A stretch of DNA of 64,000 bases from Anaerolineaceae bacterium UBA2260. GTDB taxonomy: Bacteria > Chloroflexota > Anaerolineae > Anaerolineales > Anaerolineaceae. The notes beneath the pieces are model-generated. The model was not told the origin of the DNA and did not search any database. It was given only the letters and a program-made list of their open reading frames with translations. Each line of letters begins with the position of its first letter. Within the stretch, counting starts at the first letter, position 1. Shown one piece after another: positions 22,279 to 36,100 of the stretch. The position numbers and the translations under genes were made by a program. The stretch covers positions 16,502-80,501 of the forward strand of contig DDXM01000037.1 of the NCBI GenBank assembly GCA_002347485.1, written 5' to 3'.

Positions 22279-24144
22279 CTATTTGCTGGGAGATAATCGC
22301 GCGTTGACTGACCTTCTGCGTTCTTCAATCCTGGCGACGCGGGTATTCAAAGTACCGGGATTCATCTCACACGCAGGAATCGTATCGTAGGTCAGGTTCG
22401 GTGAGAAATAACCGTCGTCGACTTCCAACCAGGGTTTTAACACTTCATATCCCAGTTGAATGTCCGGGGTGGGCGTTTCATAGCCGCGGGAACTGCCCTC
22501 AAAATGAATGAGCTGGGCGAAAGGAACATACAGGTTTCGGAAACCCGCTTCGGTGACGCGCAGGCAGAAATCGATATCACCAAAGGCGAGACGAAAGCGC
22601 GGTTCATATCCGCCGACTTTCAGGAATACCTCCCGCCGGAAAGCCTGGCATGCGCCGGTTAGCGCGTTGAAATTGCGGTACCAGTTCGCCGATCCGGCGA
22701 GTCCGAGATAATCCTCAGGGGCGTTCAGGTACAGGTGTCCGATAAAACCATTCATTCCAAGGATGATTCCGGTATGCTGTATCGAGCGGTTTTTATGAAG
22801 CAGCTTTCCGCCAACCACACCGATCTCCGGGCGTATTGCCCATTGGACAAGCTCCCGCAGCCAGCCGGGTTCAACGACGAGCATGTCGTTATTGAGAGTC
22901 ACCACCACCTCGCCATCAGCGTTCGCCACACCAAGATTCACAGCAGTGGAATAGTTAAAGGGTTCATCGTAATGAATGACCCTGGTGCCCGGTCTATGTT
23001 CCAATTCGGTGAGCAGGCGCAATGCTTCCGGCTCACTGCTTTGGTTATCAACGATGACGATGGAATAATTGGTGTACGTCGTAATCACAGCAATCGATTC
23101 CAGTAAACCGCGCAGTAATCTGCCGTGGTCTTTATTCAAAATGACAAGTGAGACGGAAGGTTCGCTGGTCAACCAGTTCACCCGGCGCGAGCCGCGCGAC
23201 CAGCTGACTGTAACAGGGGTATTAATTATCTTCTCCAAATGTCGTGAAATCACCTTATCGAAGGCAGAATTCATATCCGGTGTAAGTTCATCAAAACGGG
23301 CGAGTATAGCCGGGATGTGATGCATTAAAGCCTGTCTGTGAAGGAGATCCAGGCAAATCCCATATTCCACAGCTTGCAGGTTCATCTTATCAATTGATCT
23401 GTCGTCCAATTCCGCCAGGTGGCTGCTGCGGATAAACGCCCTGGTGAGGTAATTCAGCGAGAGCATTAATTCGGGTGATGGGGAGGAGGGCTTAAAGAAC
23501 GGTTGGGAATCTCCACTAACGGGGTTAAAATACTCGCAATCAAAGTAATACAGGTCGCCTGCCGGATGGCTGCCCAGGGCGAGATAGAAGTGATCCAGAA
23601 GGGTGGGATCGAAGCGGTCACCAGCGCTGCAGAATACGATATAGTCAGTACGCAATTGCTCGATCATTGGGCGCAGGCCGGTAATTTCTCGAACAGGTGG
23701 GAAGATGCGCGAATCAGGCAGAGTGTCATTAACCGAATCCCACTTCACGCCGGCAGCCAGCACAGGGATAACTCGCCAGCCCCGTTGGGTCAGGCTGGCG
23801 AGGGATCGCAACGTTTCCAGTGCATCATTTTCCTTGCCTGCTTCGACTGCGAGAAGAAAGGTAACCGCCCCGTCCGCTGGAGTTGCACTGACAACCGGCA
23901 ATTTTGGTCGTGAGGTTTTCCAGACTGAATATGAGGATTTTGCCTTTCGTACGCGGGCGTTGACGAATGGCCGGGTGGCGTTGAGGCGGTGATACAAGGT
24001 TCTTAATGCGAGTTCGAGACGGCTACCCATGGGGATCAGATTGCGTGGAAGCGGGTTGGAGAGGATATTAATGATCTTCAAGGCAATTTCCCGGCTGGTA
24101 TGGTTTGAATGAAGGAGGTTAATGCCGGATTGAAAAGAAACCAA
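22279..24144 (-). CDS. Large glycosyltransferase: about 330-aa N-terminal domain of unknown function plus a GT2 (GT-A) domain
   Basis: The GT2 core reads VSLVILNKDHGRLL ... IVIVDNQS ... LNNDMLV (DxD-like) ... GACQAFRREVF ... GDIDFCLR. The N-terminal half has no motif I recognise. The start is a TTG at 24144 and is uncertain; an ATG at 24030 is possible. Confidence 0.8.
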   Translation of the reverse strand: MVSFQSGINLLHSNHTSREIALKIINILSNPLPRNLIPMGSRLELALRTLYHRLNATRPFVNARVRKAKSSYSVWKTSRPKLPVVSATPADGAVTFLLAVEAGKENDALETLRSLASLTQRGWRVIPVLAAGVKWDSVNDTLPDSRIFPPVREITGLRPMIEQLRTDYIVFCSAGDRFDPTLLDHFYLALGSHPAGDLYYFDCEYFNPVSGDSQPFFKPSSPSPELMLSLNYLTRAFIRSSHLAELDDRSIDKMNLQAVEYGICLDLLHRQALMHHIPAILARFDELTPDMNSAFDKVISRHLEKIINTPVTVSWSRGSRRVNWLTSEPSVSLVILNKDHGRLLRGLLESIAVITTYTNYSIVIVDNQSSEPEALRLLTELEHRPGTRVIHYDEPFNYSTAVNLGVANADGEVVVTLNNDMLVVEPGWLRELVQWAIRPEIGVVGGKLLHKNRSIQHTGIILGMNGFIGHLYLNAPEDYLGLAGSANWYRNFNALTGACQAFRREVFLKVGGYEPRFRLAFGDIDFCLRVTEAGFRNLYVPFAQLIHFEGSSRGYETPTPDIQLGYEVLKPWLEVDDGYFSPNLTYDTIPACEMNPGTLNTRVARIEERRRSVNARLSPSK

Positions 24145-24227: not shown

Positions 24228-25082
24228 TTGGATTGGATCGAAAGATTGGAAAACCACACTGTTACAATATATGATAGTACTACATCTATAACATTCCCAC
24301 AATATCTTGTAAAAACGGTCAGAGATATTCTTCAGTACAGATTCGCCTGGTCGAATTTCGTAAAAACCGGCCTGCGAATTCGCTACCGCAGATCGGTACT
24401 GGGATTCTTTTGGAGTTTGCTTAACCCATTAATCAGCCTGGTCGTGATCGCTACCGCGTTTTCATTTCTATTTAACCGGGATATTAAGAGCTTTGGGATT
24501 TTCCTGTTCGCGGGAATGCTCCCCTACCAGTATATCAGCACCTCCATCCAGCAGGCGACGCTCTCCTTGATCAACGCTGAGGGTTACCTGAAGAAGGTTT
24601 ACCTGCCCCAGATGTTATTCCCGCTGATCACCGTCTCGATCGAAACGGTCAATTTTATTTTCAGCCTGTTCGCCCTTTATATCATCGCCCTTTTCTTCGG
24701 CGCAACTTTCTCGCCGACGGTATTCCTCCTCCCAATTGTCATCTTGATCTTTTTTTTCTTTAATTTGGGCTTGGGCATGTTCCTGTCCGTGTTGAATGTT
24801 TTCTTCAGAGACACACCCAATATCGTGACCGTCCTGTTCTCAGCGCTCTTTTATGCCACCCCGGTTATATACACCCTGGACCGACTTCCCGAAAACCTGC
24901 AGAGGATATTTAAACTCAATCCCCTCCTATATTTTGTAAAACTCTCACGCCTGGTAATCCTGGGGGATGCGCCGATGCACTTTTGGGATTGGATGATTCC
25001 GATCATATTTGCGCTGGTGGCATTATTGATCGGATGCTGGATGATGATGAAGAGCGAAGGAAAGGTCGTTTACAGACTATGA
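24228..25082 (+). CDS. wzm: ABC-2 type polysaccharide/O-antigen export permease (Wzm-like)
   Basis: The 284-aa product has six hydrophobic helices. The N-terminal RYRRSVLGFFWSLLNP motif is characteristic of ABC-2 (Wzm/TagG/KpsM) permeases. The start is TTG. Confidence 0.85.
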   Translation: MDWIERLENHTVTIYDSTTSITFPQYLVKTVRDILQYRFAWSNFVKTGLRIRYRRSVLGFFWSLLNPLISLVVIATAFSFLFNRDIKSFGIFLFAGMLPYQYISTSIQQATLSLINAEGYLKKVYLPQMLFPLITVSIETVNFIFSLFALYIIALFFGATFSPTVFLLPIVILIFFFFNLGLGMFLSVLNVFFRDTPNIVTVLFSALFYATPVIYTLDRLPENLQRIFKLNPLLYFVKLSRLVILGDAPMHFWDWMIPIIFALVALLIGCWMMMKSEGKVVYRL

Positions 25083-25885
25083 TGCCAATCATCGAATTTG
25101 AAAACGTGTCGGTCCAGGTCCGCGCGTATACCAATCCGACCCCAACGCTCAAAGAGACCTTCGTTTCACTTTTTGCGAAACATAAAGGCGCCACCAGTTA
25201 TGCCGAGTTCTTCGCCTTGAGGGATGTCAATCTCAAGATCTATGAGGGTGAACGGGTGGGAATCCTTGGCTTGAACGGGGCGGGTAAATCCACCATGCTT
25301 AAGGTGATCGCAGGGATTTACCGCCCTCATACCGGGCGTGTGATCGTGCGCGGCGAGGTGACCCCGCTGCTCGAAACAAGGGCAGCGATCAACCCTGAAT
25401 TGACCGGGCGCGACAACATTTACCAGTACGGGGCGATCCACTGCATCCCGGCGGAATACGTGCGCTCGAAGGAACAGGAGATCATCGACTTCTCTGAACT
25501 GGGTGATTTTATCAATGTCCCGGCCAAGTATTATTCAACGGGAATGTTCTCGCGGCTGGTTTTTTCGATCGCTACAATGATCGACCCGGATATCCTGATT
25601 ATCGATGAGGTATTCTCGGCAGGAGATTCGAGCTTCGTCGAAAAAGCGACCAACCGCCTCTTGGGCTTGCTGGATAAATCACGCGCGGTGTTTTTTGTTT
25701 CGCATAACATTGAGCAGGTTTTGCGTATCTGCGACCGCATCCTGGTACTGCAGGAGGGAAGGGTTATCAATGATGGTCCCTCAGTCGAAATGGCACAATT
25801 CTACAAAGAGAATATAATTTCCAAGCGCAAGATCGGCATGGTCAACCGATTCCTGGTAGAAAAGCTTAAGGAAAGGAACGGCTAA
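25079..25885 (+). CDS. wzt: ABC-2 polysaccharide export ATP-binding protein (Wzt/TagH-like), no C-terminal carbohydrate-binding domain
   Basis: The ATG at 25079 overlaps the wzm stop (ATGA). Walker A is GLNGAGKST, the signature is YSTGMFSRL and Walker B is ILIIDEV. At about 268 aa it is an NBD only. Confidence 0.88.
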   Translation: MMPIIEFENVSVQVRAYTNPTPTLKETFVSLFAKHKGATSYAEFFALRDVNLKIYEGERVGILGLNGAGKSTMLKVIAGIYRPHTGRVIVRGEVTPLLETRAAINPELTGRDNIYQYGAIHCIPAEYVRSKEQEIIDFSELGDFINVPAKYYSTGMFSRLVFSIATMIDPDILIIDEVFSAGDSSFVEKATNRLLGLLDKSRAVFFVSHNIEQVLRICDRILVLQEGRVINDGPSVEMAQFYKENIISKRKIGMVNRFLVEKLKERNG

Positions 25886-26208: not shown

Positions 26209-27654
26209 ATGACTCTGCAAAAGCCGACGTTGTACCTGCATGTTGGAACGCACAAGACCGGTACGACTGCTTTACAAACTTCTTTGCAAGCTAGCCGACA
26301 ATTGCTCCTTGACCAGTCTATTCTTTATCCTGAAGGATTATATTGGGGGGGGCATCATGACATCGCCAGGTACATAAAAAATAATTCATACTTGAATTTG
26401 GTTGAAATATTTTTCGAAAACATTAATTCAGAATGTCAACAAAAGAATATCAATAAAGTGGTGATTTCCTCTGAGGATTTCTTCAAGTTTACTAGAGCAG
26501 ATATTCGACGTGAAAAGGCAGAAATTGCCGAAGAATCCCTGGAAAATATGTATAAATTAAAAGAGGTATTGCCTAAAGGTTTTGATATAAAAATTGTTGC
26601 TTACATCCGCAGACAAGATCTAGCGATTGAAGCAAAATACAACCAGCGGGTAAAATTCAAGAATAATTTCACAATTACCGCCAAAGAGTTCAGGGATGAA
26701 ATGATGGACGATATCACCCTAAACTATGATTTTCTTCTTGATCTTTGGGCGAGTGTATTTGGAAATGAAAATATCATTGTGCGGGTATATGAAAAGCAGG
26801 AACTTCCTGATGGTACGGTAGTCGATTTCCTCAAGAAAGTTCTACAGATTACGGATGAGAACGTAATCAAGCAAATCGCGGCTTCTTCAACAATGGAAAA
26901 TCCGCGCTTAAACCGGGATTTACTTGAATATAAGCGAATCCTCAACATGATCTATAAAGATAATCCCCTGGATAGAAATCAGTTGTATCTTGATTTTCTT
27001 CAAGTTGCCTCAGAAATGGAAGGCAGCGATAACTTTAAGGATCTATATTCCATTGAAGAAAGAAGAGCAATTCTTGAACACTATTCTGAATGTAATGCTC
27101 ATGTCGCGAAGATTTTTCTGGGACGGGAAGATGGCAAGTTGTTTAGTGAGTTTACAGAACAGGAAGAAAATTACATACCATACCCCGGATTATCAGTTGA
27201 GAAGGCTATAGAAATTAGCCACAGATTGCAAAACATCAAAATATGTCGCGTCAAAGAGAAAGTCGATTATTTAAATGATTTGGTCACGAGCGTGCAGAAC
27301 TTTAGAGTGATACGAATTTTCCGCAAAATCTTTCATCAATTAAAAAGATCGCAAAATTCATTGCTAATTCACCGGATTGAAAAAAGCGGTTTATTTGACC
27401 AAGAATATTATTTGAATACTTACCCGGAAGTAAAGATCACGGGAATGGACCCCTTAACGCATTACATGGAATACGGGTGGCGGGAAGAATTTAATCCGAG
27501 CAGGAAATTTAATACGTCAATATATTTAAGGCGGTTTCCTGAACTGAGGAGCTCTGGATATTGCCCGCTAGTGCATTATTTAAGAGGGAAAAATAGGTTC
27601 AGAAACCAATCAAATGTTGACGCAATTGAGGAAATTGATCAAGAAGACTATTAA
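26209..27654 (+). CDS. Sulfotransferase-like protein, paralogue 1, with a C-terminal double FDxxYYL...NPLxHY repeat module
   Basis: The N-terminal loop LYLHVGTHKTGTTALQ is 5'-PSB-like, VVISSED follows, and AYIRRQDLAIEAKYNQ is 3'-PB-like. The C-terminus reads SGLFDQEYYLNTYPEVKITGMDPLTHYMEYGWREEFNPSRKFNTSIYLRRFPELRSSGYCPLVHYL. I chose the ATG at 26209 by parallel with paralogue 2. The track's TTG at 26194 is not conserved in paralogue 2. Confidence 0.6.
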   Translation: MTLQKPTLYLHVGTHKTGTTALQTSLQASRQLLLDQSILYPEGLYWGGHHDIARYIKNNSYLNLVEIFFENINSECQQKNINKVVISSEDFFKFTRADIRREKAEIAEESLENMYKLKEVLPKGFDIKIVAYIRRQDLAIEAKYNQRVKFKNNFTITAKEFRDEMMDDITLNYDFLLDLWASVFGNENIIVRVYEKQELPDGTVVDFLKKVLQITDENVIKQIAASSTMENPRLNRDLLEYKRILNMIYKDNPLDRNQLYLDFLQVASEMEGSDNFKDLYSIEERRAILEHYSECNAHVAKIFLGREDGKLFSEFTEQEENYIPYPGLSVEKAIEISHRLQNIKICRVKEKVDYLNDLVTSVQNFRVIRIFRKIFHQLKRSQNSLLIHRIEKSGLFDQEYYLNTYPEVKITGMDPLTHYMEYGWREEFNPSRKFNTSIYLRRFPELRSSGYCPLVHYLRGKNRFRNQSNVDAIEEIDQEDY

Positions 27655-27760
27655 CCAGGAAGTGGAAAATTTCCTTACTTTTACCATCAAATTGAAATTT
27701 TCAAGTTATAAACCCACCAATCACAACTGAATTTTGCTAAAAATCAGCTTAATTTCGGGA

Positions 27761-27769
27761 TGGTATAAT
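27761..27769 (+). promoter_or_regulatory. Extended -10 promoter TGgTATAAT upstream of sulfotransferase-like paralogue 2
   Basis: This is the same 17-nt block as at 26096-26112. It lies 98 nt upstream of the ATG at 27867. Confidence 0.5.
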
Positions 27770-27866
27770 CAAAAATGCTTCGGGTTTTAATTAGACTTGC
27801 ATAATTATTAATTGGCCTAGTGTTGAATAATCAACTTCATATCTAAGGAAATCGAATCGAATCGAT

Positions 27867-29297
27867 ATGACTCTGCAAAAGCCAACTTTGTACCTGCACA
27901 TTGGCACGCATAAGACCGGCACTTCATCCATTCAAATGGCTTTGCATACCCACCGCGAGGAACTGCTCAAGGCGGGTGTGCTTTACCCGGCGCTGAATAA
28001 TGCGTATAATCATTACGAATTGGCAGTTCTTTTAAAGTCACCTGAAGGGATGACAATAATCCAGAACTGGTTTGACGGGATCGTTGAAAAGGTCAATCAG
28101 CGCTCGATCAACAAAGTGGTAATTTCGGCTGAGGCGCTTTATTTCCTGAGGTTTATTGAGTTAGTTAGAACTAAGGATAATCCCCGAAATTCAACTATTA
28201 CTGAAGAAAACTACCGGGAAAAACTCAACAATCTGCGCGCTCTGATCCCGGATATTTTTGACATCAAGGTTGTGGTTTACTTGCGCCGCCAGGATAGTTT
28301 TATCCAATCAGGGTACAGCCAGTTAATAAAAGGATCAGAATACTTTTCTGGTTCCATCAGGGAGTTTATCGACGGCCTCGCAGTTTTCATGGACTATAGC
28401 TTCATGCTGAATCTTTGGGCGGAGATCTTCGGAAAAGAGAACATCCTGGTCAGAGTTTATGAGAAGCAGCAATTACCGGGTGGCAGCGTTCAGGATTTTT
28501 TGCGCGTGATAGAAATACCCACTGATCTCTCCAACATTATCCTTTCAACCACGGACAATTACAACATCCGCCTGAGCAGAGAGCTTTTGGACTATAAACT
28601 GATCTTGAACCAGCTCTTAAAAAATGAAGACCCGGTTCGTAAAGACCAACTGCACTACACCCTCCTAGAGAAATTATCCGAGCAGCCTGAATTCCGCCAG
28701 ACTAACGGAGAATTTCTGACCACTCAGGAAAAACGTGACATCATTTCCCGATATTCCGAGAGCAATGCAAAAGTTGCCCGGGAGTTTTTGGGGCGGGAAG
28801 ATGGGCGCCTGTTCTATGAAGCTTTACCAGAAGAAACAAAAAGTGACAGCTATCCAGGGCTCAGCGTTGAAAGGGCGGTGGAGATCGGCACCCGGTTAAG
28901 CTTCCTGGTCATTGACGGTTATGAGCAGAGAACCAAAATCAAATCCCTTCATTCGGTCCTGTCGTATCCGGAACTGCTTGACGCGCAGGGCTTATTGAAC
29001 ATGTTTCCAATGAAAATCCTCAAGAAGATCTATGTCAAAATCAAGAATGAAAAAGATATTCGGATTATACGGCGCAGCGGCTTATTTGATGCAGAGTATT
29101 ACCTGGCTTACAACCCGGATGTGGCAGCCAGCGGGGTCGAGCCGATCAGGCACTTCGCCTACTCCGGATGGAAAGAACTGCGTAAGCCAAATGATCTGTT
29201 TGATGTCAACGGGTATATTTTAGATCACCCCGAGATCATTCGTTCAGGTATGAACCCCCTGGTTCATAAAATTATTCACAGTAAAGTGGAACGATAA
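27867..29297 (+). CDS. Sulfotransferase-like protein, paralogue 2, with a C-terminal double repeat module
   Basis: Motifs are LYLHIGTHKTGTSSIQ, VVISAEA and VYLRRQDSFIQSGYSQ. The C-terminus reads SGLFDAEYYLAYNPDVAASGVEPIRHFAYSGWKELRKPNDLFDVNGYILDHPEIIRSGMNPLVHKI. Confidence 0.6.
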   Translation: MTLQKPTLYLHIGTHKTGTSSIQMALHTHREELLKAGVLYPALNNAYNHYELAVLLKSPEGMTIIQNWFDGIVEKVNQRSINKVVISAEALYFLRFIELVRTKDNPRNSTITEENYREKLNNLRALIPDIFDIKVVVYLRRQDSFIQSGYSQLIKGSEYFSGSIREFIDGLAVFMDYSFMLNLWAEIFGKENILVRVYEKQQLPGGSVQDFLRVIEIPTDLSNIILSTTDNYNIRLSRELLDYKLILNQLLKNEDPVRKDQLHYTLLEKLSEQPEFRQTNGEFLTTQEKRDIISRYSESNAKVAREFLGREDGRLFYEALPEETKSDSYPGLSVERAVEIGTRLSFLVIDGYEQRTKIKSLHSVLSYPELLDAQGLLNMFPMKILKKIYVKIKNEKDIRIIRRSGLFDAEYYLAYNPDVAASGVEPIRHFAYSGWKELRKPNDLFDVNGYILDHPEIIRSGMNPLVHKIIHSKVER

Positions 29298-29300
29298 ACT

Positions 29301-30689
29301 ATGTCCTCTATCAAACCAACCCTCTTCATCCATATCGGTTTACCAAAGACTGGAACTACGGCATTACAAACAGCTTTGTCCGCCAGTCAGAAGCTTCTTC
29401 TTGAAAACAGGATCTATTATCCCAACGCGTTTTTTTGGGGCGGTCACCATGATATCGCCCGCTGGTTGAAGCACGGGAGTGATGATACTTTGCTCATCAA
29501 TTTTTTTGATGAGATGAAATCCGGGTGTTTGGAAAACGCGTGCGAAAAGGTTGTCATTTCCTCCGAGGGTTTCTATTATCCGATCGCCAGCGAGATTGAA
29601 AGAGATAAGGCAACCTGCTCGCTCGAGATTCGGAAGAATCTTTTGAGGTTAAGGCAAGTCATTCCTGAGGACTTTAACGTGAAAATCGTGGCATACCTGC
29701 GGCGGCAAGACCTCGCCCTTGACTCCAACTACAATCAGCGCGTTAAGTACAGTCACTCTTTCACGCTTTCTCCAAGGGAATTTTTGCAACGCACTTTTGA
29801 ACGGTTCAACCGGGACTACGATTTTCTCCTGGATGCGTGGGCTGAGGTGTTCGGGATTGGAAATATTATCGTCAGAGTGTATGAAAAAGGGCAACTTCCT
29901 GATGGTACGATCGTTGACTTTTTACGGAACGTATTGCAGATCGAAGATGACGGACTGATCAAGAAGGTCACCGCTTCTTCAACCATCGAAAATCCCCGAT
30001 TGAGCCGTGACCTGTTGGAATATAAGCGTATTTTAAACAAGATTTATAGCAACCAGCCATTGATGCGCGATCAGTTGTACCTTGATTTCCTGCAAGTATC
30101 TCAGCAGATGGAAGGCGCAACGAAATCCGGGAACATCTTCACGGTTGAAGAAAGGCTGGAAATCCTCTCCAAATACCAGGAAGGCAACGAAAGAGTGGCA
30201 AGGAAATTCCTGGGTCGGGAAGACGGGAGACTGTTTTACGATCCCTTGCCGGATAAAGAAAAGGACCCTCCGTACCCGGGCTTATCCGTTGAAAAATCCA
30301 TCGAGATCAGTTGGCGATTGCATTTGCTGGAAATGAATCGCATCGAGAAGAATGTGGATGCGTTAAACGCCTTCATATCACAAATTAAAGGACTGTTTGG
30401 CGTAAGAGTATTCAGAAAGATTTACAGGTTTTTTAAAGAAAGGAAGGCTTCTGAAATTTATCGAAGAATCGAAAAGAGCGAGCTGTTTGATCGCGAATAT
30501 TACCTGAGCACCTATCCTGTGGTAAAGGAGACAGGTTTGGATCCCCTGCAGCATTACCTGAATCATGGATGGAAAGAGGGTTTTAATCCAAGCCGCAACT
30601 TTAACACGGCTGAATATCTCTTAAAATATCCAGATCTCGCCAGCAATGATTTGAACCCACTTGTTCATTACCTGCAAAATAGAAAGTAA
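29301..30689 (+). CDS. Sulfotransferase-like protein, paralogue 3 (closest to paralogue 1), with a C-terminal double repeat module
   Basis: Motifs are LFIHIGLPKTGTTALQ, VVISSEG and AYLRRQDLALDSNYNQ. Long near-identical stretches are shared with paralogue 1, for example NIIVRVYEK..LPDGT.VDFL, ENPRL.RDLLEYKRILN and QLYLDFLQV. The C-terminus reads SELFDREYYLSTYPVVKETGLDPLQHYLNHGWKEGFNPSRNFNTAEYLLKYPDLASNDLNPLVHYL. The gene starts 3 nt after the paralogue 2 stop. Confidence 0.6.
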   Translation: MSSIKPTLFIHIGLPKTGTTALQTALSASQKLLLENRIYYPNAFFWGGHHDIARWLKHGSDDTLLINFFDEMKSGCLENACEKVVISSEGFYYPIASEIERDKATCSLEIRKNLLRLRQVIPEDFNVKIVAYLRRQDLALDSNYNQRVKYSHSFTLSPREFLQRTFERFNRDYDFLLDAWAEVFGIGNIIVRVYEKGQLPDGTIVDFLRNVLQIEDDGLIKKVTASSTIENPRLSRDLLEYKRILNKIYSNQPLMRDQLYLDFLQVSQQMEGATKSGNIFTVEERLEILSKYQEGNERVARKFLGREDGRLFYDPLPDKEKDPPYPGLSVEKSIEISWRLHLLEMNRIEKNVDALNAFISQIKGLFGVRVFRKIYRFFKERKASEIYRRIEKSELFDREYYLSTYPVVKETGLDPLQHYLNHGWKEGFNPSRNFNTAEYLLKYPDLASNDLNPLVHYLQNRK

Positions 30690-30727
30690 TGAAAATTGAT
30701 GCCTAATTATCCTAAAGGCTTGGAAGT

Positions 30728-32341
30728 ATGACGCGATTATTTCATCGAACGAGGAATACTGTGGAAGGTGGCGACAACATCGTTTATCTTCTTGATCGAT
30801 ACCTGTTTGAAAATGATTCGACTGTGATGATCGGCGGTTGGTGTTTTTCAAAACGGACCGGCAAGGTTTCTATTTCTGTCAGTGGCGTTGAGGCCAGGGT
30901 CACCAGGCATTACCGTGATGATCTCGCAAGGGATTTTCCCGCCTACAAGGAGCAGATTCGCAACAGCGGTTTTGAGATCAGGATCAGTAAAAAGGACGCG
31001 AACACAAAGAAATTCGGGATTACTTTCTCGGACGGAACTGAAACGGTGGATGTTCCCAATGACAGGCGGAAGATCTTTACCGTGATGCTGCGGAACCGGG
31101 TGAAGAAACTGATCAAAGGGGGGATTTTCCTGATCCTGGGCATCATAAGCGCGCTTGACCTGGGAAAGTTTAGAAGGCAATGGATCACCCAATTCAAGCG
31201 GCACGCGCAGTTGATCCAACCCGGTAAGGCTGAGGAGCCCGAAGGTGTTCAAAGGATCGATTCAGACATTAAATATGTTGCCTTTTACCTGCCGCAATTT
31301 CACCCGATCAAAGAGAATGACGAGTGGTGGGGAAAAGGGTTCACAGAGTGGCGTAACGTGGCGCGCGCGTTACCGATGTACGTGGGACACTACCAGCCCC
31401 ACATCCCCTCTGACCTGGGGTTTTATGACCTTCGCAACGCGCGAACGATCGAAAACCAGGTGAACCTGGCGCGCCGATTCGGGATCTATGGGTTTTGTTT
31501 TCATTACTATTGGTTCGGAGGAAGAAGACTGCTCGAAGAGCCCTTGGATATTTTCCTGGAGCACCAGGAGATCGACTTTCCCTTCTGCATCTGCTGGGCG
31601 AACGAGACATGGTCGCGCAGGTGGGATGGATCAGAAAACGATATACTGATGAAGCAGGATCATACCGAGGAGACGGATCTGCGCTTCATCCAGGACGCGG
31701 TGGAACTCTTCCGTGATAAGCGCTACATTCGTATCAACGAAAGACCGGTGCTCATCATTTACCGCCCTGATCTCTTCCCGTCACTGCCGGACACAATTGA
31801 GCATTGGAAAACTTACTGCAAAGAACAGGGTATGCAGCCGCCTTTCGTGATCGGCGCGCTGACCTTTGATATCGAAGATCCCACCATCTTTGGTTGCGAT
31901 GCAGGGGTCGAGTTCCCGCCTCACGGGTTGCGCTTGCGGCAGATCACATACAAGAAACGCATGCTGAATCCCAAATTCAGCGGGATTGTTTTTGAAGCCA
32001 GGAATATCATTCAAGATAAACTGTACCTGGAGAGCACTCCCTTCCTGAAATTCAGGACCGTCTTCCCGGGATGGGACAACACGCCGCGCAAGCCCGAAAA
32101 AGGCTTTGTGTTTGAACACACCTCTCCAGCGTTCTACAAAGAATGGCTTAAAGATGTCAGCCAATATACCAATACAAATATTGCGCCTGAGCATAGGTTT
32201 GTTTTCATCAACGCGTGGAATGAGTGGGCGGAAGGCGCGCACCTTGAACCTGATTTTCAATATGGGACGGGCTACCTGGAAGCCACAGCCGAGGTGCTCA
32301 AGGAATTGAGAACCAGAGGTGATCAACCTGCCGGTGAATAA
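30728..32341 (+). CDS. WbsX-family glycosyltransferase/glycoside-hydrolase-like protein with an N-terminal extension and one TM helix
   Basis: YVAFYLPQFHPIKENDEWWGKGFTEWRNV ... FCFHYYWFGGRRLLE ... CICWANETWSRRWDG ... INAWNEWAEGAHLEP is the WbsX-family (lipopolysaccharide biosynthesis protein) signature as I remember it. The first ~160 aa plus the helix IKGGIFLILGIISAL are additional. Confidence 0.75.
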   Translation: MTRLFHRTRNTVEGGDNIVYLLDRYLFENDSTVMIGGWCFSKRTGKVSISVSGVEARVTRHYRDDLARDFPAYKEQIRNSGFEIRISKKDANTKKFGITFSDGTETVDVPNDRRKIFTVMLRNRVKKLIKGGIFLILGIISALDLGKFRRQWITQFKRHAQLIQPGKAEEPEGVQRIDSDIKYVAFYLPQFHPIKENDEWWGKGFTEWRNVARALPMYVGHYQPHIPSDLGFYDLRNARTIENQVNLARRFGIYGFCFHYYWFGGRRLLEEPLDIFLEHQEIDFPFCICWANETWSRRWDGSENDILMKQDHTEETDLRFIQDAVELFRDKRYIRINERPVLIIYRPDLFPSLPDTIEHWKTYCKEQGMQPPFVIGALTFDIEDPTIFGCDAGVEFPPHGLRLRQITYKKRMLNPKFSGIVFEARNIIQDKLYLESTPFLKFRTVFPGWDNTPRKPEKGFVFEHTSPAFYKEWLKDVSQYTNTNIAPEHRFVFINAWNEWAEGAHLEPDFQYGTGYLEATAEVLKELRTRGDQPAGE

Positions 32342-32379
32342 GCATTTTCCCGGGCAAATAAAAAAAAGGTGGAAAAACC

Positions 32380-33111
32380 TTGTCTAATCGTCAGATCGTT
32401 CTCCATATCGGATTCAGCAAAACGGGATCCTCAGCGCTGCAGGTTTTCCTTTCTCAAAACCAGAACCTGCTGGCCAGTTACAACTACGGGTATCCCGAGA
32501 TCGATCCTTACCACTTTGAAAAGGCAAAAAAGGGCGAGATTTCGAGTGGAAACGCTCATTTGCTGCGCGAGGTACTTCACCAGGATACCCAAAACGCTTC
32601 CTTAAATCAATCCGCTCGCTTACTGACACATTTTCTTAGCGCCAATGGCCGCAATTCGACCCTTATTATTTCCTCCGAGAGCTTCGGGGTGATGACCGAG
32701 GAAGAGATCGCTTTTTTCTCCAGATTATTGAGACAATTTTCGCTTGATGTGAAGATCATCTGTTATGTGCGCCGGCAGGATCAGTATATCGAAGCGGCAT
32801 GGACGCAGTGGCAAAGCAAACTCTCTGATTCGTTGCAGCTTGATTTAAGAACGAACCCGGATGTTGTGAAATCTAGGATTGACCCGATCCGGCATTACGT
32901 AGCGAACGGGTGGCATGAAGGAAGGGACCCTGCGCCGGGTTTTTCCACGGCGAATTACCTGGCTGAACATCCGGATATCGCCGTATTAAAACTTAACCCA
33001 TTTGTTCAGTACATTCTAGACCAAAAAATAACTCTTTCAAAATGTTCACCGGGTGAATTTCAAAGGATCGATCCGGCTAGTACCAACCATCGGGAAAAAC
33101 ATAACAGGTAA
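32380..33111 (+). CDS. Truncated sulfotransferase-like paralogue 4 (N-terminal half fused directly to the repeat module)
   Basis: The TTG start lies 7 nt after AAGGTGG. Motifs are VLHIGFSKTGSSALQ, LIISSES and CYVRRQDQYIEAAWTQ. These run straight into LDLRTNPDVVKSRIDPIRHYVANGWHEGRDPAPGFSTANYLAEHPDIAVLKLNPFVQYI. The product is 243 aa against 460-480 aa for paralogues 1-3. Confidence 0.55.
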   Translation: MSNRQIVLHIGFSKTGSSALQVFLSQNQNLLASYNYGYPEIDPYHFEKAKKGEISSGNAHLLREVLHQDTQNASLNQSARLLTHFLSANGRNSTLIISSESFGVMTEEEIAFFSRLLRQFSLDVKIICYVRRQDQYIEAAWTQWQSKLSDSLQLDLRTNPDVVKSRIDPIRHYVANGWHEGRDPAPGFSTANYLAEHPDIAVLKLNPFVQYILDQKITLSKCSPGEFQRIDPASTNHREKHNR

Positions 33112-33114: not shown

Positions 33115-36100
33115 ATGGCAGGGTATTCAAACGAGCGCAGGTTACACAAAGACATCAAGCTGATCAAAGGGTCAGGTTTGTTCGACGCCAGTTGGTACCT
33201 ATCCACTTACCCTGAGGTAGCAGGCAGCGGAGAATCCCCAGAATTGCATTACTTGTTGAGGGGGGGATTTGAGGGTTATGACCCGTGTGAGATATTTTCG
33301 AGCAGCGCCTACCTTGAACAATATCCTGATGTTCGGGAAGCCGGGATGAATCCTCTGGTTCATTATGTTACCTTCGGTAAAAAAGAAGGCCGTAGTGTCG
33401 AGGTCAGCGAACAAGCCGGCAATGTAGCAAAAGAACTGATCGCCACAAAACAGGAGTATTACCGACTGTTTGGCTGTTTACCGGATCTCACGGCCCCGGT
33501 CACCTTTTCAGAAAAGATCCTTGCGTATAAGTTGTTCTATACCGAACAAGACCTGGGCAGGTTTGTCGATAAGGGCAGGGTTCGGGAATTTGTGGCAAAA
33601 ACCATTGGGGAAAAATACCTCATTCCGATGATTGGGATCTTTTCCGATCCGGATGATATCGATCTTAAGGAATTGCCCGACCAGTTCGTTATAAAAGCCA
33701 CACATGGTTCTGGATGGAACGCGTTCTGTTCGAGTAAAGCAAATTTTGATTGGGCAGGTCAAAAAAAAATCCTCAGGGAATGGTTGAATAGCAATTTCTA
33801 CGACCGATTTTTCGAATCCGCCTACATGAATGTACCGCCAAGGCTTCTCATCGAACATTTCATTCACGATGAGTACGGGATTGTCCCCCGGGATTACAAA
33901 TTCTTCTGTTTTAACGGTGAGCCCGCTTTGATCCAGGTGGATTCAGACCGGTTTTCAGGACATAATCGAAATTTTTATGATCTTAAATGGAATCTGCTCA
34001 ATGTCAGGGGAAATTACCCAAATAACCAGGGAAGGTTGGAAAAACCCGCCAACCTGGCAAAAATGCTGGAAGTCAGCAGGTGTCTCTCCGCGGGTTTTCC
34101 TTTTGTGCGTGTTGACCTTTATGCTATCCCTGAAGTGTACTTTGGCGAATTGTCCTTTTATCCTGAAGCTGGATTCTTGCGATTGACGCCTGTGTCGTGG
34201 GATAAAAAACTTGGCGAGTGTTTTGAGATACAAAAGTACTTAGACGAATCTTGCATAAATTTAAACGGATCATTCGATCCATTGGACCTGTTCCGGGTCC
34301 GTTCAGAACGGTTCGGTTTCGATTTTTCCTGTCATCGACAGGACCGACCTGCATATACGGCGCTCGCTAATCAAGACCTGACCAGCTATTTGTTCAGGCA
34401 AATGGTCAGGGGGGTGAAGACGTATATCGACGCCGACGCCGGCTGCGGCTTCTACGCGTTGCTCGCTGCTAAAAGCAACCCGGAGCTCGATATCCATTGT
34501 TTTGAATCTGCGCCGGTCATGCAAGACCTATTGCAAACCAATCTTGCTGACAACCATGTACAGGCTTCTATCAACGATGAACTCCTGCGAGAAATCGTGC
34601 ATGGACCGGCGCTCATCCGGATGGACGGCGGACCTGGCACCTCGAAAACACTGGAAAGACTGAAAGGGACCATCGAACATACCGCTGATGTACGGCTCTT
34701 GATTCATGATCTTGATGCGAATTCAAATACTGCCCCCAGGTTCCTAGAGGGTATTTTCGCGAAATTGGAACAGTGGGGATTTGACCTGTTTGTGGTGGAT
34801 GAAGAAAACAGGATTTACCGAAGGTATCCTTCCGCGGAGGAGGATACGCGCGCAAACAAACCGGGTCCGCGCAGCCTGGTGGCTATTAAAAAAGAGCAAT
34901 CCTTGAATCTCCTCTTCTTCTCTCATTCGGCGAACCTGTTTGGAGCTGAACGCTCCCTGCTTGATCTGACTGCCAGCCTGACCAGGCGATTCGGCGTGCT
35001 GTGCACGGTGGCACTACCGGAAGAGGGTCCGCTCAAACAAGCGCTGGAGAGCGCAGGAGTGGCCACCCGGGTCATCCCGTACAGCTGGTGGTGCGCGCCC
35101 TCCGGGTACCTGCCGGCGGACAAGGACGGCATCGACCGGACACTGGCTGAAAGTTATCAGGCGATGAGGGAACATTCACAGGCGATCGCAGGCATCGGCG
35201 CTGACCTGGTGGTGACCAGCACAATGGTCATTCCCTGGGGGGGGCTGACAGCCAAAAACCTGGATGTGCCGCATATCTGGTGGGTGAAGGAATTTGGCCA
35301 GCTGGATCATGGACTGGAATTCTACCTGCCCTTCGAGAAGACGCTCGAGGTGATCGATGAAGCCTCGAACTACATTGTGGTTCCTTCCAAAGCGCTCAAG
35401 GATACTCTCTTTGAGATGGTCTCTGCTGAGAAAGCGATCGTAGCGTATAACCTCAAACCGGTTTTCACCGGGTCTGATAGGATGGATGAAACATTCTTTT
35501 TTGATGATCAGGCGCTTAAACTCCTGATCTTCGGGTTGGTGATGCCCTCCAAGGGGCATGAGGAAGCCATCCAGGCCGTTGATAGGTTGCTCCAGGAGGG
35601 ACGCAACGTCGAGCTTTGCATCCTGGGGGACTCCAGCAATCCATACGGCGAACACCTGAAGGAATACGTGCGGTCCATCGGCCGCGGGGATCAAATTCAT
35701 TTCCATGAATTCACAACGAACGTGCGCGGGGCGATCGAACAGTCGGATATCGGACTGGTATGTTCCAGGAATGAGGCTTTCGGCAGGGTAACCGTGGAAG
35801 CCATGATGCTGGGGAAACCGGTCATCGGCACAAGGTCAGGGGGGACCATCGAACTGATCGAAGATGGGAGTGACGGGTTACTTTATGACCCGGGCAATCT
35901 TGATCAATTGGTCGAGAAAATTGAGTTTTTCCTCACTTCACCCGGTAAGGTTGTCGAATTCGGGGAGAGGGCTCAACAAAACATTCTGAGGAAATTAGAC
36001 GAAAAGCCTGTGGATGACCTCATGTATCAGTTAAGTCTGGGATTGAAAAAGGGGAGAAACCCGGGTTCAGCAAAATTATCTGATCTCGCCGCGGAGTGGG

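What the first reader, a model, noticed from the sequence alone, without database searches (positions are those of the whole stretch)
26209..33111. Four paralogous genes with sulfotransferase PAPS-binding signatures sit next to an ABC-2 glycan exporter
Seen in sequence:
- The products of 26209-27654, 27867-29297, 29301-30689 and 32380-33111 all open with an xHxGxxKTG(T/S)(T/S)x(L/I)Q loop (LYLHVGTHKTGTTALQ, LYLHIGTHKTGTSSIQ, LFIHIGLPKTGTTALQ, VLHIGFSKTGSSALQ).
- All share an (V/I)IS(S/A)E strand at about aa 85-100.
- All share an RRQDxxxx(S/A)x(Y/W)xQ motif at about aa 130-145.

Established knowledge: sulfotransferases hold PAPS with an N-terminal 5'-phosphosulfate loop (PKxGT(T/S)xL type) and a later 3'-phosphate motif (RxxxDxxxS). 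Order and spacing fit here.

Inference: several sulfotransferases of different specificity decorate one glycan that is made on the cytoplasmic face and exported by Wzm/Wzt (24228-25885). A PAPS-supply operon lies at 59.7-63.8 kb in the same window. Heavily sulfated bacterial glycans are rare outside a few cyanobacterial and rhizobial examples. A four-paralogue set of this domain design would be an undescribed system.
Basis: partly seen in the sequence, partly recalled or inferred. Interest (0 to 1): 0.78.

Follow-up and report, generated by a model that had tools for sequence, protein, structure and literature searches.

The report
Uncurated sulfotransferase paralogues in wall-glycan cluster
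Three full-length genes and one truncated gene next to a polysaccharide exporter in an Anaerolineaceae genome most likely encode divergent sulfate-adding enzymes from a very large family that standard databases do not label, although the overall design already has precedents in marine bacteria.

Summary
ORFs 26209-27654, 27867-29297, 29301-30689 and 32380-33111 are paralogues, and all carry the HxGxxKTG(T/S)(T/S)x(L/I)Q loop, the IS(S/A)E strand and the RRQDxxxx(S/A)x(Y/W)xQ motif.

The sulfotransferase reading is supported by indirect evidence only:
- The window proteins miss every Pfam threshold (E 0.05-0.2).
- Two relatives, about 33% identical, pass the Sulfotransfer_1 cut-off.
- A 64-sequence family profile hits PDB sulfotransferase 3rnl (E 0.001).
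- For an AlphaFold model (pLDDT 93.4), the 21 best PDB matches are all PAPS sulfotransferases.
- Relatives in Methanoregula and a Desulfurivibrionaceae MAG sit beside PAPS-synthesis genes.

- The fourth gene is a truncated copy. It has only the N-terminal third of the domain, and no homologue of the same architecture was found.
- ST1 and ST4 carry Ala at the 3'-phosphate serine position.
- The family is not rare. It has about 30,700 clusters at 50% identity, and multi-copy arrays and tandem fusions are common.
- Sulfated capsule clusters combining rml genes, an ABC exporter, cysNDC and several sulfotransferases are already published for Vibrio and Cobetia.

Verdict: a new member of a known kind, in an uncurated family and an unexpected phylum. 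No biochemistry exists for it.

The parts
26209..27654 (+). ST1. 481 aa: sulfotransferase-like domain (aa ~1-350), helical linker, and two 38-aa repeats (aa 395-470, nt 27391-27618). PSB loop nt 26239-26277, SxE strand nt 26458-26475, RRQD motif nt 26608-26646. Ala at the PB-serine position. Unusually low GC (37.6%).
   Evidence: (family HMM E 4.8e-103)
27867..29297 (+). ST2. 476 aa, same architecture as ST1. PSB loop nt 27897-27935, SxE nt 28116-28133, RRQD....S nt 28284-28322. Repeats at nt 29082-29294.
   Evidence: (E 1.8e-106)
29301..30689 (+). ST3. 462 aa, same architecture; this is the protein that was modelled. PSB loop nt 29331-29369, SxE nt 29550-29567, RRQD....S nt 29700-29738, VRVYE strand nt 29868-29885. 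Repeats at nt 30483-30686.
   Evidence: pLDDT 93.4; E 2.4e-108
32380..33111 (+). ST4. 243 aa, TTG start. Truncated paralogue with only the N-terminal ~145 aa of the domain (PSB loop, SxE, RRQD with Ala at the serine position), followed directly by the two repeats (nt 32824-33051). It lacks the VRVYE strand and the helical C-terminal half.
   Evidence: (HMM positions 3-133 only)
24228..25082 (+). Wzm-type ABC-2 permease.
   Evidence: ABC2_membrane, 2.2e-14; galactan Wzm/RfbD model, 5.4e-25, below its cut-off
25079..25885 (+). Wzt/TagH-type ATPase, 268 aa. Nucleotide-binding domain only, with no C-terminal carbohydrate-binding module. Its start overlaps the wzm stop.
30728..32341 (+). WbsX-family glycosyltransferase (537 aa), lying between ST3 and ST4.
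   Evidence: PF14307, 2.6e-130
33115..36306 (+). 1063-aa multidomain protein. N-terminal pair of the same 38-aa repeats (nt 33178-33405), then a TupA-like ATP-grasp domain, a weak methyltransferase-like region and a GT4 glycosyltransferase.
22279..24144 (-). GT2 glycosyltransferase (621 aa), divergent from wzm.
18807..22193 (+). rmlC, rmlB, rmlA, rmlD (dTDP-L-rhamnose synthesis).
   Evidence: all four above the equivalog cut-offs
13410..17477 (+). Bac_transf initiating phosphoglycosyl transferase (13410-14876) and a PMT_2-like GT-C membrane glycosyltransferase (14943-17477). The same gene set accompanies family members in other loci.
59687..63804 (-). PAPS supply. cysN with a partial C-terminal APS-kinase-like domain (59687-61504), cysD (61505-62386), cysC APS kinase (62403-63014) and a TauE/SafE-family anion permease (63055-63804).
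50562..52127 (+). Fusion of a low-molecular-weight phosphotyrosine phosphatase and a LytR-CpsA-Psr domain. Candidate ligase that attaches the polymer to the wall of a monoderm cell.

Best explanation
ST1, ST2 and ST3 are cytoplasmic, PAPS-dependent glycan O-sulfotransferases from a large, divergent and uncurated branch of the sulfotransferase superfamily.

Proposed pathway in this Anaerolineaceae (Chloroflexota) bacterium:
1. A rhamnose-containing wall polysaccharide is built on a lipid carrier at the cytoplasmic face. The builders are the Bac_transf initiator and the GT2, WbsX and GT4 glycosyltransferases, using sugars from rmlABCD and Gmd.
2. The three enzymes transfer sulfate from PAPS, made by CysDN and CysC, to different hydroxyls of the polymer.
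3. The finished anionic polymer is exported by Wzm/Wzt. It is probably then attached to the wall by the LCP enzyme.

Proposed roles of conserved residues:
- K16 and T17-T20 of the HIGxxKTGTT loop hold the 5'-phosphosulfate.
- R134 and S142 of the RRQDxxxxS helix hold the 3'-phosphate.
- Y194 of the VRVYE strand contacts the adenine.
- E89 (or H11) is the catalytic base.

The two 38-aa repeats at the C-termini, also present at the N-terminus of the ATP-grasp/GT4 protein, probably co-localise the modifying enzymes. ST4 is a truncated derivative of unknown activity, possibly none.

What is shown: paralogy, motifs, fold class, remote homology, gene context. What is inferred: donor, acceptor, residue roles, order of steps, role of the repeats.
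For: 1. Family conservation falls on the sulfotransferase-defining positions. In 64 diverse homologues, K16, T17, Q23, R134 and D137 are invariant. S142 is Ser in 53, Ala in 10 and Thr in 1. E89 is conserved in 61/64, H11 in 62/62 and Y194 in 60/64. The R134-to-S142 spacing of +8 equals that of the canonical RxxxDxxxS motif (PMC11625862).

2. Sequence homology points the same way.
- Six of the 64 members hit Sulfotransfer_1 at E<0.01.
- P0040 and P0041 are 32-34% identical to ST3 (E ~2e-33). They pass the Pfam gathering score (31.8 and 26.0 bits against 22) over profile positions 7-162/185.
- The family profile hits PDB 3rnl 'Sulfotransferase' at E 0.001. That alignment pairs IGlpKTGTTAlQ with VGAAKCGTSSL, and YlRRQDllleSaY with MLRNPVDRAFSAY.
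- P0040 alone aligns its RRQD helix and VRVYE strand to the KIIYIVRNPKD..VS and LFIFYEE elements of a cytosolic SULT, 5x2b, at a marginal E of 0.05.

3. Fold. The AlphaFold model of ST3 aa 1-350 has pLDDT 93.4 and pTM 0.91. Foldseek ranks 1-21 are all PAPS sulfotransferases or the PAPS-using retinol dehydratase: 3rnl, NDST1, TPST1/2, HS 3-OST-1/3/5, SULT1C2 and Teg12. The first non-sulfotransferase appears at rank 22.

4. Gene context of relatives.
- In a Methanoregula contig, three family copies flank cysN, cysD and an APS kinase.
- In a Desulfurivibrionaceae contig, two adjacent copies follow an APS kinase and an ABC exporter, ahead of GT4 and GT2 genes.
- Other members sit with ABC-2 transporters, GT2, Bac_transf and PMT_2 genes, or among LPS glycosyltransferases.
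- Fusions of this domain with a canonical Sulfotransfer_3 domain exist.

5. Local context. The genes are co-directional with gaps of 3-38 nt from ST2 to the GT4 protein. Wzm/Wzt, rmlCBAD and cysNDC are in the same window.

6. Published precedent. Clusters combining rml, an ABC transporter, cysNDC and several sulfotransferases make rhamnose-sulfated capsules in Vibrio sp. KMM 8419 and Cobetia marina (PMC11641403, PMC11766843).
Against: - None of the four window proteins reaches any curated threshold. Pfam sulfotransferase scores are 11.6-13.8 bits against cut-offs of 22-27. NCBIfam gives nothing, and single-sequence PDB searching gives nothing.
- The Foldseek matches are weak. The best E is 5.8e-4 and TM-scores are 0.3-0.5. 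The sulfotransferase fold is itself a derivative of the P-loop kinase fold, and kinases and GTPases appear lower in the same list.
- hhalign against two thin canonical sulfotransferase profiles found nothing.
- ST1 and ST4 have Ala at the PB serine.
- The cys operon is 27 kb away and could simply serve sulfur assimilation.
- No member of this family has been assayed, as far as the literature searches showed.
- The acceptor, and the existence of any sulfated glycan in Anaerolineaceae, are untested.
Confidence: 0.7

Rival explanations
1. The proteins are P-loop kinases or phosphotransferases that phosphorylate the glycan using ATP, not sulfotransferases.
For: Sulfotransferases share their core fold with P-loop nucleotide kinases. 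The fold search also returns dTMP kinase, zeta-toxin UNAG kinase, and GPN-loop and SRP GTPases at E 0.01-0.05. The window proteins fail all curated sulfotransferase thresholds. In the Cobetia cluster paper, unassigned 'P-loop NTPases' are listed among the modification genes.
Against: There is no Walker A motif (GxxxxGK[ST]); the loop is H-I-G-x-x-K-T-G-T-T, with only two residues between G and K. All 21 top structural hits are PAPS enzymes. The only significant profile hits are to sulfotransferases. Relatives lie next to PAPS-synthesis genes. The conserved RRQDxxxxS helix matches the 3'-phosphate site, which kinases do not have.
Confidence: 0.05
2. They are true PAPS sulfotransferases, but the acceptor is not the exported polymer. 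It could be a glycolipid, a lipid-linked primer, a nucleotide sugar, a small metabolite or a protein.
For: Characterised bacterial sulfotransferases mostly act on glycolipids or lipo-oligosaccharides, for example Stf0, NodH and KpsS (PMC11625862). One relative, P0085, sits beside a sulfatase and non-glycan genes. The acceptor-binding region cannot be read from sequence.
Against: Five of the seven relatives examined lie among glycan-assembly or glycan-modification genes: ABC exporters, GT2/GT4/GT9, Bac_transf, PMT_2 and a pyruvyl transferase. A sixth (Methanoregula) sits with PAPS-synthesis genes only, and the seventh (P0085) is in a non-glycan context. In the window the genes are interleaved with glycosyltransferases and follow wzm and wzt directly.
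Confidence: 0.09
3. One or more of the enzymes acts as a chain terminator. It would sulfate only the non-reducing end of the polymer to stop elongation and set chain length, as WbdD does with phosphate and methyl in E. coli O9a.
For: The architecture is a catalytic domain, a helical linker and a C-terminal interaction module. A Sulfotransfer_2 protein (P0075) carries a long tropomyosin-like coiled coil before the same repeats. This recalls the coiled-coil ruler of WbdD (own knowledge). ABC-transporter-dependent pathways commonly use terminal caps.
Against: Wzt here is only 268 aa and has no C-terminal carbohydrate-binding module to read a cap. The linker in ST1-3 is only about 50 aa. Three diverged paralogues fit several positions better than a single cap. 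No sulfate cap is known.
Confidence: 0.07
4. Some copies are inactive remnants or non-catalytic scaffolds. ST4 is the clearest candidate, and ST1 possibly another.
For: ST4 keeps only profile positions 5-136 and lacks the VRVYE strand and the helical half. It has no homologue of the same architecture outside its own 90% cluster. ST1 and ST4 have Ala at the PB serine. In one metagenome contig (L001), ST2, ST4 and the GT4 protein are split into fragments.
Against: ST4 keeps K, T, SxE and RRQD intact, and identical sequences are seen on 13 contigs. Ala at the serine position occurs in 10 of 64 family members, so it is a tolerated variant. ST1-3 retain every invariant family residue.
Confidence: 0.05

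Closest known systems
Sulfated capsular polysaccharide clusters of marine Gammaproteobacteria (Vibrio sp. KMM 8419, PMC11641403; Cobetia marina KMM 1449, PMC11766843)
   Same: One locus combines dTDP-rhamnose genes, glycosyltransferases, an ABC exporter, cysN/cysD/cysC and several sulfotransferase genes. The polymer is assembled and sulfated in the cytoplasm and then exported. In those organisms rhamnose sulfate was shown chemically.
   Different: Those are Kps-type (group 3 capsule) systems of diderm bacteria with KpsMTED and kpsSC. Here the exporter is Wzm/Wzt-type in a Chloroflexota genome, with an LCP ligase and no Kps genes among the ORFs scanned. Their sulfotransferases were recognised by standard annotation, whereas these fail all curated thresholds. 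No chemistry exists for this organism.
Pfam Sulfotransfer_1 (PF00685) / heparan-sulfate-type and bacterial sulfotransferases (PDB 3rnl, NDST1 NST domain, HS 3-OSTs, TPSTs)
   Same: Strand-loop-helix with an invariant Lys (KTGTT against PKxGTT). Strand-turn-helix with Arg and Ser eight residues apart. A parallel beta-sheet core. These are the best sequence-profile and structural matches.
   Different: Scores for the window proteins are below the gathering thresholds. About 70 residues of extra helices lie between the PSB loop and the second strand. An extra ~150-aa helical C-terminal half is present. Family-specific invariant residues are H11, Q23, R135-Q136-D137 and K149. The catalytic base is not established.
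Rhamnose-rich cell-wall polysaccharide pathways of streptococci and lactococci (Rgp/Gac type; own knowledge)
   Same: rmlABCD, an ABC-2 exporter, an RgpF/WbsX-like transferase, a GT2 plus GT-C (PMT_2-like) side-chain system, and an LCP ligase, in a cell without an outer membrane.
   Different: Those polymers gain negative charge from glycerol phosphate added outside the cell. Here the proposed anionic group is sulfate added inside the cell from PAPS.
Synechan (xss) cluster of Synechocystis PCC 6803 (PMC8205485)
   Same: A bacterial extracellular polysaccharide cluster containing more than one sulfotransferase. The same paper notes ABC-type clusters with sulfotransferases in other cyanobacteria.
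   Different: Synechan is Wzx/Wzy-dependent. XssA and XssE are recognised by Pfam PF00685, PF03567 or PF13469. The phylum and the physiology are different.
WbdD-type chain terminators of ABC-transporter-dependent O-antigen synthesis (own knowledge)
   Same: A cytoplasmic modifying enzyme with a helical linker and a C-terminal interaction region, encoded next to wzm and wzt.
   Different: There is no kinase or methyltransferase domain and no long coiled coil. The Wzt lacks the cap-reading module.

Membership tests
PAPS-dependent sulfotransferase superfamily (as defined in PMC11625862: PSB lysine, PB-helix serine, beta-sheet PAPS-binding fold) | Strand-loop-helix (5'-phosphosulfate-binding loop) with a conserved catalytic Lys (or Arg) | tested here: met
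   K16 is invariant in 64/64 homologues. It follows strand 7-11 and precedes helix 19-28 in the model. It is present in all four window proteins.
PAPS-dependent sulfotransferase superfamily | Strand-turn-helix 3'-phosphate site with Arg and a Ser on the helix (RxxxDxxxS type, Arg-to-Ser spacing +8) | tested here: met
   Met in ST2 and ST3: R134...S142 at +8, after strand 126-133 and on helix 136-150. Family counts are R 64/64 and S 53/64. HMMER aligns this segment to the LRNPVDRAFSAY motif of 3rnl.
PAPS-dependent sulfotransferase superfamily | The same PB-helix serine, in ST1 and ST4 | tested here: not met
   ST1 (RRQDLAIEA) and ST4 (RRQDQYIEA) have Ala at this position. Ten of 64 family members do as well. 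Whether activity survives this change is unknown.
PAPS-dependent sulfotransferase superfamily | Overall alpha/beta fold superposable on solved sulfotransferases | tested here: met
   Foldseek ranks 1-21 are all PAPS enzymes with probability 0.96-1.00, but TM-scores are only 0.3-0.5 and the best E is 5.8e-4. The model has pLDDT 93.4.
PAPS-dependent sulfotransferase superfamily | Catalytic base (His or Glu) positioned at the acceptor site | tested here: inconclusive
   The candidates are E89 (61/64) at the end of strand 83-87 and H11 (62/62). No superposition with a ligand-bound structure could be made with these tools.
PAPS-dependent sulfotransferase superfamily | PAPS binding and sulfate transfer | not testable with these tools
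   This needs recombinant protein and a PAP-release or 35S assay.
Pfam Sulfotransfer_1 (PF00685), Sulfotransfer_3 (PF13469), Sulfotransfer_4 (PF17784) | Score at or above the curated gathering threshold | tested here: not met
   Window proteins: ST3 scores 11.6, 13.7 and 13.8 bits and ST2 12 bits, against cut-offs of 22-27; ST1 and ST4 give no hit. Relatives P0040 (31.8 bits) and P0041 (26.0 bits) do pass PF00685. Membership is therefore transitive only.
P-loop NTPases / nucleotide kinases | Walker A motif GxxxxGK[ST] | tested here: not met
   The loop is H-I-G-x-x-K-T-G-T-T in all four proteins and in 62-64 of 64 homologues.
ABC-transporter-dependent (Wzm/Wzt) polysaccharide pathway | ABC-2 permease plus ATPase adjacent to cytoplasmic glycosyltransferases and an initiating phosphoglycosyl transferase | tested here: met
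   ABC2_membrane at 2.2e-14 and ABC_tran at 2.1e-19; Wzt/TagH models at 1e-50 to 1e-54, below their equivalog cut-offs; GT2, WbsX, GT4 and Bac_transf are present.
ABC-transporter-dependent pathway with terminal-cap chain-length control (WbdD / Wzt-CBM type) | C-terminal carbohydrate-binding module on Wzt | tested here: not met
   Wzt is 268 aa and consists of the nucleotide-binding domain only.
Cluster-linked PAPS supply, described as the 'hallmark of sulfated polysaccharide biosynthesis' (PMC11641403) | cysD, cysN and cysC in the same locus as the sulfotransferases | tested here: met
   cysN (TIGR02034, 338 bits against a cut-off of 336), cysD (NF003587, 352 bits against 195) and cysC (TIGR00455, 261 bits against 139) are at 59.7-63.0 kb. 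They are 27 kb from the ST genes, at the far end of the glycan region, so the linkage is looser than in the Methanoregula locus.

The most novel reading that the evidence does not exclude
This family has about 30,700 clusters at 50% identity, and roughly 90% of the sampled members are invisible to Pfam. It may be a major unrecognised clade of polysaccharide sulfotransferases. If so, sulfated cell-envelope glycans would be widespread in anaerobic, non-marine lineages (Anaerolineaceae, Desulfobulbia, Planctomycetota, methanogenic archaea), not confined to cyanobacteria, rhizobia and marine bacteria. The shared 38-aa ankyrin-like repeat would then be a previously undescribed docking module that assembles glycan-modifying enzymes.
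Probability: 0.45. Interest if true: 0.62.

Novelty: new member of a known kind. Interest (0 to 1): 0.45.

Why it matters
If the assignment is right, three things follow.

1. A very large set of 'hypothetical proteins' in glycan clusters gets a testable function. A recent review states that Pfam-based searches miss most non-GAG polysaccharide sulfotransferases (PMC11625862). This family is a concrete example, and it could seed a new curated model.

2. It predicts a sulfated, rhamnose-containing wall polymer in Anaerolineaceae. These bacteria are abundant in anaerobic digesters and hydrocarbon-degrading consortia. Such a polymer would affect flocculation, metal binding and sulfur budgets.

3. 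Sets of diverged paralogues are candidate regiospecific enzymes for making sulfated polysaccharides biotechnologically.

It does not change any concept. PAPS-dependent sulfation before ABC export is already an accepted model.

Tried and rejected
- Direct Pfam scan of the four proteins gave only sub-threshold sulfotransferase hits. NCBIfam gave none.
- phmmer of ST3 against PDB gave none.
- hhalign of the family profile against a 3-sequence Sulfotransfer_3 profile and against a single Sulfotransfer_2 domain gave no significant alignment. This is uninformative because the templates are so thin (Neff 1-1.5).
- A single-sequence AlphaFold run on ST4 gave pLDDT 38, which is unusable. No alignment could be built because ST4 has no homologues of the same architecture.
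With a single protein it returned only two partial loci from GTDB genomes. A systematic census of genome context was therefore not possible; seven contexts were sampled by hand.
- Promoter and terminator scans over 24.0-36.7 kb were at chance level (23 against 18.2±4.9, and 15 against 13.7±3.8). They say nothing about operon structure.
- The repeat region has no Pfam match and only a weak ankyrin-like PDB match (E 0.0067). Its function remains unassigned.
- Rejected: a kinase reading, because there is no Walker A motif.
- Rejected: cap-reading chain-length control, because there is no Wzt carbohydrate-binding module.
- Rejected: a Kps-type capsule, because no Kps genes were found among the ORFs scanned.

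Full report
**1. What is in the sequence**

Independent gene calls from JGI, NCBI, ENA and Logan give products of exactly 481, 476, 462 and 243 aa. I call them ST1 (26209-27654), ST2 (27867-29297), ST3 (29301-30689) and ST4 (32380-33111).

All three motifs are present as described, at the residues listed:
- HxGxxKTG(T/S)(T/S)x(L/I)Q at aa 9-23.
- (V/L)(V/I)IS(S/A)E at aa 84-89 in ST1-3 and aa 95-100 in ST4.
- RRQDxxxx(S/A)x(Y/W)xQ at aa 131-152.

A regular expression for the first motif matches four times in all six reading frames of the window, once in each ORF. ST1-3 are 39.5-53.2% identical over their whole length. ST4 matches the family profile with hhalign probability 99.5%. The paralogy is beyond doubt.

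**2. Source organism**

Identical proteins occur on contigs of up to 132 kb from methanogenic hydrocarbon-degrading enrichments and anaerobic-digester metagenomes. Housekeeping neighbours fall in 90% clusters whose NCBI members are named 'Anaerolineaceae bacterium' or Chloroflexota. From general knowledge, Chloroflexota lack an LPS outer membrane. The exported polymer is therefore probably a wall polysaccharide, not an O-antigen.

**3. Are they sulfotransferases? Direct searches fail**

ST2 and ST3 give Pfam Sulfotransfer_1, _3 or _4 hits only at E 0.05-0.2, which is 11.6-13.8 bits against cut-offs of 22-27. ST1 and ST4 give nothing. NCBIfam gives nothing, and phmmer against PDB gives nothing.

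**4. Are they sulfotransferases? Indirect evidence is consistent**

(a) Homologues and their conservation. A homologue search found 256 relatives, almost all unannotated. I aligned 64 of them over the N-terminal ~350 aa (A2). The invariant columns are K16, T17, Q23, R134 and D137. Near-invariant columns are H11, G13, G18, T19, S87, E89, R135 and Q136. These cluster on the elements that define the superfamily, namely the PSB lysine, the PB helix and the beta-sheet PAPS fold (PMC11625862). The Arg-to-Ser spacing, R134 to S142, is +8. That equals the spacing in the RxxxDxxxS consensus of PF00685.

(b) Transitive Pfam membership. Six of the 64 members hit Sulfotransfer_1 at E<0.01. Two of them, P0040 and P0041, are 32-34% identical to ST3 at E ~2e-33. 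Both exceed the Pfam gathering score over profile positions 7-162/185.

(c) Solved structures by sequence. The A2 profile finds one significant PDB chain, 3rnl 'Sulfotransferase' (E 0.001). Both the PSB loop and the RRQD helix align to the corresponding motifs of that protein. P0040 alone aligns, marginally (E 0.05), to a cytosolic sulfotransferase, 5x2b. The alignment runs through KIIYyVRRQD...S against KIIYIVRNPKD..VS, and NIfVRVYEk against NVLFIFYEE. From my own knowledge, the Tyr of that last strand contacts the PAPS adenine in cytosolic SULTs. That makes Y194 (60/64) a likely third PAPS contact.

(d) Fold. AlphaFold2 on A2 gives a confident model with pLDDT 93.4 and pTM 0.91. It has four parallel strands (7-11, 83-87, 126-133, 189-193) and a helical C-terminal half. 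In Foldseek against PDB, ranks 1-21 are all PAPS-using enzymes: 3rnl, NDST1, TPST1/2, HS 3-OST-1/3/5, SULT1C2, Teg12 and retinol dehydratase. The CurM sulfotransferase follows at rank 31. GTPases and kinases appear only from rank 22 on, with lower probabilities. The scores are modest, with best E 5.8e-4 and TM 0.3-0.5. Extra helices and the C-terminal half, which the solved enzymes lack, probably contribute to this.

(e) The kinase alternative. The loop G-x-x-K-T-G-T-T is not a Walker A motif (GxxxxGK[ST]). This argues against an NTPase or kinase.

**5. Gene context elsewhere**

I looked at seven diverse relatives and scanned their loci with an HMM built from A2.
- Methanoregula contig: three family copies flank cysN, cysD and an APS kinase within about 7 kb.
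- Desulfurivibrionaceae contig: an APS kinase and an ABC exporter are followed by two adjacent family copies, then methyltransferases, an acyltransferase, a GT4 and a GT2.
- Two ~800-aa proteins that contain two tandem copies of the domain sit with an ABC exporter, a GT2, a Bac_transf and a PMT_2 gene. One of these loci also has a WbsX/RgpF protein and a further single-domain copy.
- One relative lies among LPS-type glycosyltransferases.
- One lies next to a pyruvyl transferase and a galactosyltransferase.
- One lies beside a sulfatase in a non-glycan context.

Fusions of the domain with a canonical Sulfotransfer_3 domain also exist (P0062, P0092, P0110). The two cases of immediate linkage to PAPS synthesis are the strongest functional clue. 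They are anecdotes, however, not statistics.

**6. Local context**

| Coordinates | Feature |
|---|---|
| 13410-14876 | Bac_transf initiating transferase |
| 14943-17477 | PMT_2-like GT-C glycosyltransferase |
| 17685-18668 | GDP-mannose 4,6-dehydratase |
| 18807-22193 | rmlC, rmlB, rmlA, rmlD |
| 22279-24144 (-) | GT2 |
| 24228-25885 | wzm, wzt |
| 26209-30689 | ST1, ST2, ST3 |
| 30728-32341 | WbsX glycosyltransferase |
| 32380-33111 | ST4 |
| 33115-36306 | 1063-aa repeat + TupA ATP-grasp + GT4 protein |

Gaps from ST2 onward are 3-38 nt. ST1 is separated from its neighbours by 323 and 212 nt. Wzt is 268 aa and has no carbohydrate-binding module. The cysN, cysD and cysC genes and a TauE-family permease lie at 59.7-63.8 kb on the other strand. 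An LCP ligase domain is at 50562-52127.

No signal peptide can be present, because the PSB loop begins at residue 9-11. The enzymes are therefore cytoplasmic, as PAPS use requires.

**7. Corrections to the finding**

(i) ST4 is a truncated copy. It covers profile positions 5-136 only. It lacks the fourth strand (VRVYE) and the whole helical half, and runs straight into the repeats. No protein of the same design exists outside its own 90% cluster.

(ii) ST1 and ST4 carry Ala at the PB serine. This variant is found in 10 of 64 family members.

(iii) The family is very large. The A2 profile finds 30,689 representatives of 50%-identity clusters at E<=1e-10, and 9,844 at E<=1e-30. Many contain 2-5 tandem domains. 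Paralogue arrays are therefore the rule, not an oddity.

(iv) The system design is already published. Vibrio sp. KMM 8419 and Cobetia marina KMM 1449 make rhamnose-sulfated capsules from clusters with rml genes, an ABC transporter, cysNDC and several sulfotransferases. The authors call the co-location of PAPS and sulfotransferase genes a hallmark of such clusters (PMC11641403, PMC11766843). The synechan paper notes ABC-type clusters with sulfotransferases in cyanobacteria (PMC8205485).

**8. Domain design**

All four proteins end in two ~38-aa repeats (consensus LFDxxYYLxxYPDVxxxGxxPLxHYxxxGWxEGxNPS). The 1063-aa protein begins with the same two repeats. An HMM built from the ten copies finds them nowhere else in the window. 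The repeat has no Pfam model. It shows only a weak ankyrin-like match in PDB (E 0.0067).

The repeat also occurs, in many tandem copies, in otherwise unrelated proteins: RTX, Ig-like and protease-domain proteins, and a GT4. It is also found in a Sulfotransfer_2 protein that has a long coiled coil (P0075). I read it as a docking or polymer-binding module that co-localises the modifying enzymes. That reading is inference only.

**9. Mechanism proposed, and confidence**

ST1-3 would sulfate distinct positions of a lipid-linked, rhamnose-containing polymer at the cytoplasmic face. They would use PAPS made by CysDN and CysC, before export by Wzm/Wzt and LCP-mediated attachment to the wall. My confidence in this overall reading is about 0.7.

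The paralogues are most alike around the PAPS elements and least alike at aa 91-110, 259-287 and 348-367. That pattern is compatible with a shared donor and different acceptors.

Rivals, with evidence and refutation tests given in their own section:
- A kinase or phosphotransferase.
- A non-polymer acceptor.
- Chain-terminating sulfation.
- Inactive or scaffold copies.

**10. Verdict**

The proteins are new members of a known kind, PAPS-dependent glycan sulfotransferases in an ABC-transporter-dependent polysaccharide cluster. What is notable is that they belong to a very large family that curated resources do not recognise, and that they occur in a phylum with no reported sulfated glycans. I score interest as moderate, at 0.45.

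Noticed in passing
window 27391-27618, 29082-29294, 30483-30686, 32824-33051, 33178-33405: A ~38-aa repeat, in two copies each, is shared by ST1-4 (C-terminal) and the ATP-grasp/GT4 protein (N-terminal). It has no Pfam model and only a weak ankyrin-like PDB match (E 0.0067). The same repeat occurs in many copies in RTX, Ig-like, protease-domain and GT4 proteins, and in a Sulfotransfer_2 protein with a coiled coil (P0075).
   Followed up: partly
window 26209-27654 and flanking gaps 25886-26208, 27655-27866: ST1 has 37.6% GC (GC3 39%), against 45-51% (GC3 52-65%) for its neighbours and 51.2% for the window. The gap after it is 31% GC. This suggests ST1 arrived more recently or from another source, although it is 53% identical to ST3.
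   Followed up: partly
window 59687-61504 (-): CysN carries a partial C-terminal APS-kinase-like domain (Pfam positions 2-99 of 152, E 1.6e-10), even though a complete separate cysC follows. This looks like a degenerate NodQ/CysNC-type fusion. A TauE/SafE-family permease ends the operon, and no cysH or cysQ is seen in the window.
   Followed up: partly
L009 (Methanoregula contig) 1991-9128: Three copies of the same sulfotransferase-like family flank cysN, cysD and an APS kinase in a methanogen. This is the tightest link found between the family and PAPS synthesis, and it hints at sulfated glycans in Methanoregula.
   Followed up: partly
proteins P0227, P0228, P0230, P0252, P0278, P0283, P0296: Single polypeptides of 800-1700 aa carry 3-5 tandem copies of the domain. 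P0062, P0092 and P0110 fuse it to a canonical Sulfotransfer_3 domain.
   Followed up: no
window 36376-38307 (-): An 80-aa carrier-protein-like ORF with a DSL motif lies next to an AMP-binding ligase, immediately downstream of the TupA-like ATP-grasp/GT4 gene. This is reminiscent of DltA/DltC-type acyl or aminoacyl decoration of a wall polymer. A second AMP-binding enzyme is at 56841-58370.
   Followed up: no
window 38533-39057: A NusG-family paralogue (174 aa) lies directly upstream of a second Bac_transf-led sugar operon (39225-43606). It is probably a dedicated antiterminator for a long polysaccharide operon.
   Followed up: no
window 47909-52127: A second envelope-polymer module: a ParA/BY-kinase-like protein (577 aa), a LysM protein, and a fusion of a low-molecular-weight phosphotyrosine phosphatase with a LytR-CpsA-Psr domain. 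A 1418-aa protein with an Ig_Rha78A-like end follows.
   Followed up: no
window 13410-17477; L013; the P0014 locus: The combination of Bac_transf, a PMT_2-like GT-C, a GT2 and an ABC exporter recurs next to this sulfotransferase-like family in unrelated metagenome contigs. This suggests a conserved cassette.
   Followed up: partly
L001 (JGI 3300000568 contig, 80.6 kb): In this otherwise identical contig, ST2 (317 + 177 aa), ST4 (86 + 139 aa) and the 1063-aa protein are called as fragments. This reflects either frameshift sequencing errors or decay of the cluster in one population.
   Followed up: no
PMC11766843, section 2.4: The Cobetia sulfated-capsule cluster is reported to contain 'several P-loop NTPases' among its modification genes. 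These may be unrecognised members of the family described here.
   Followed up: no
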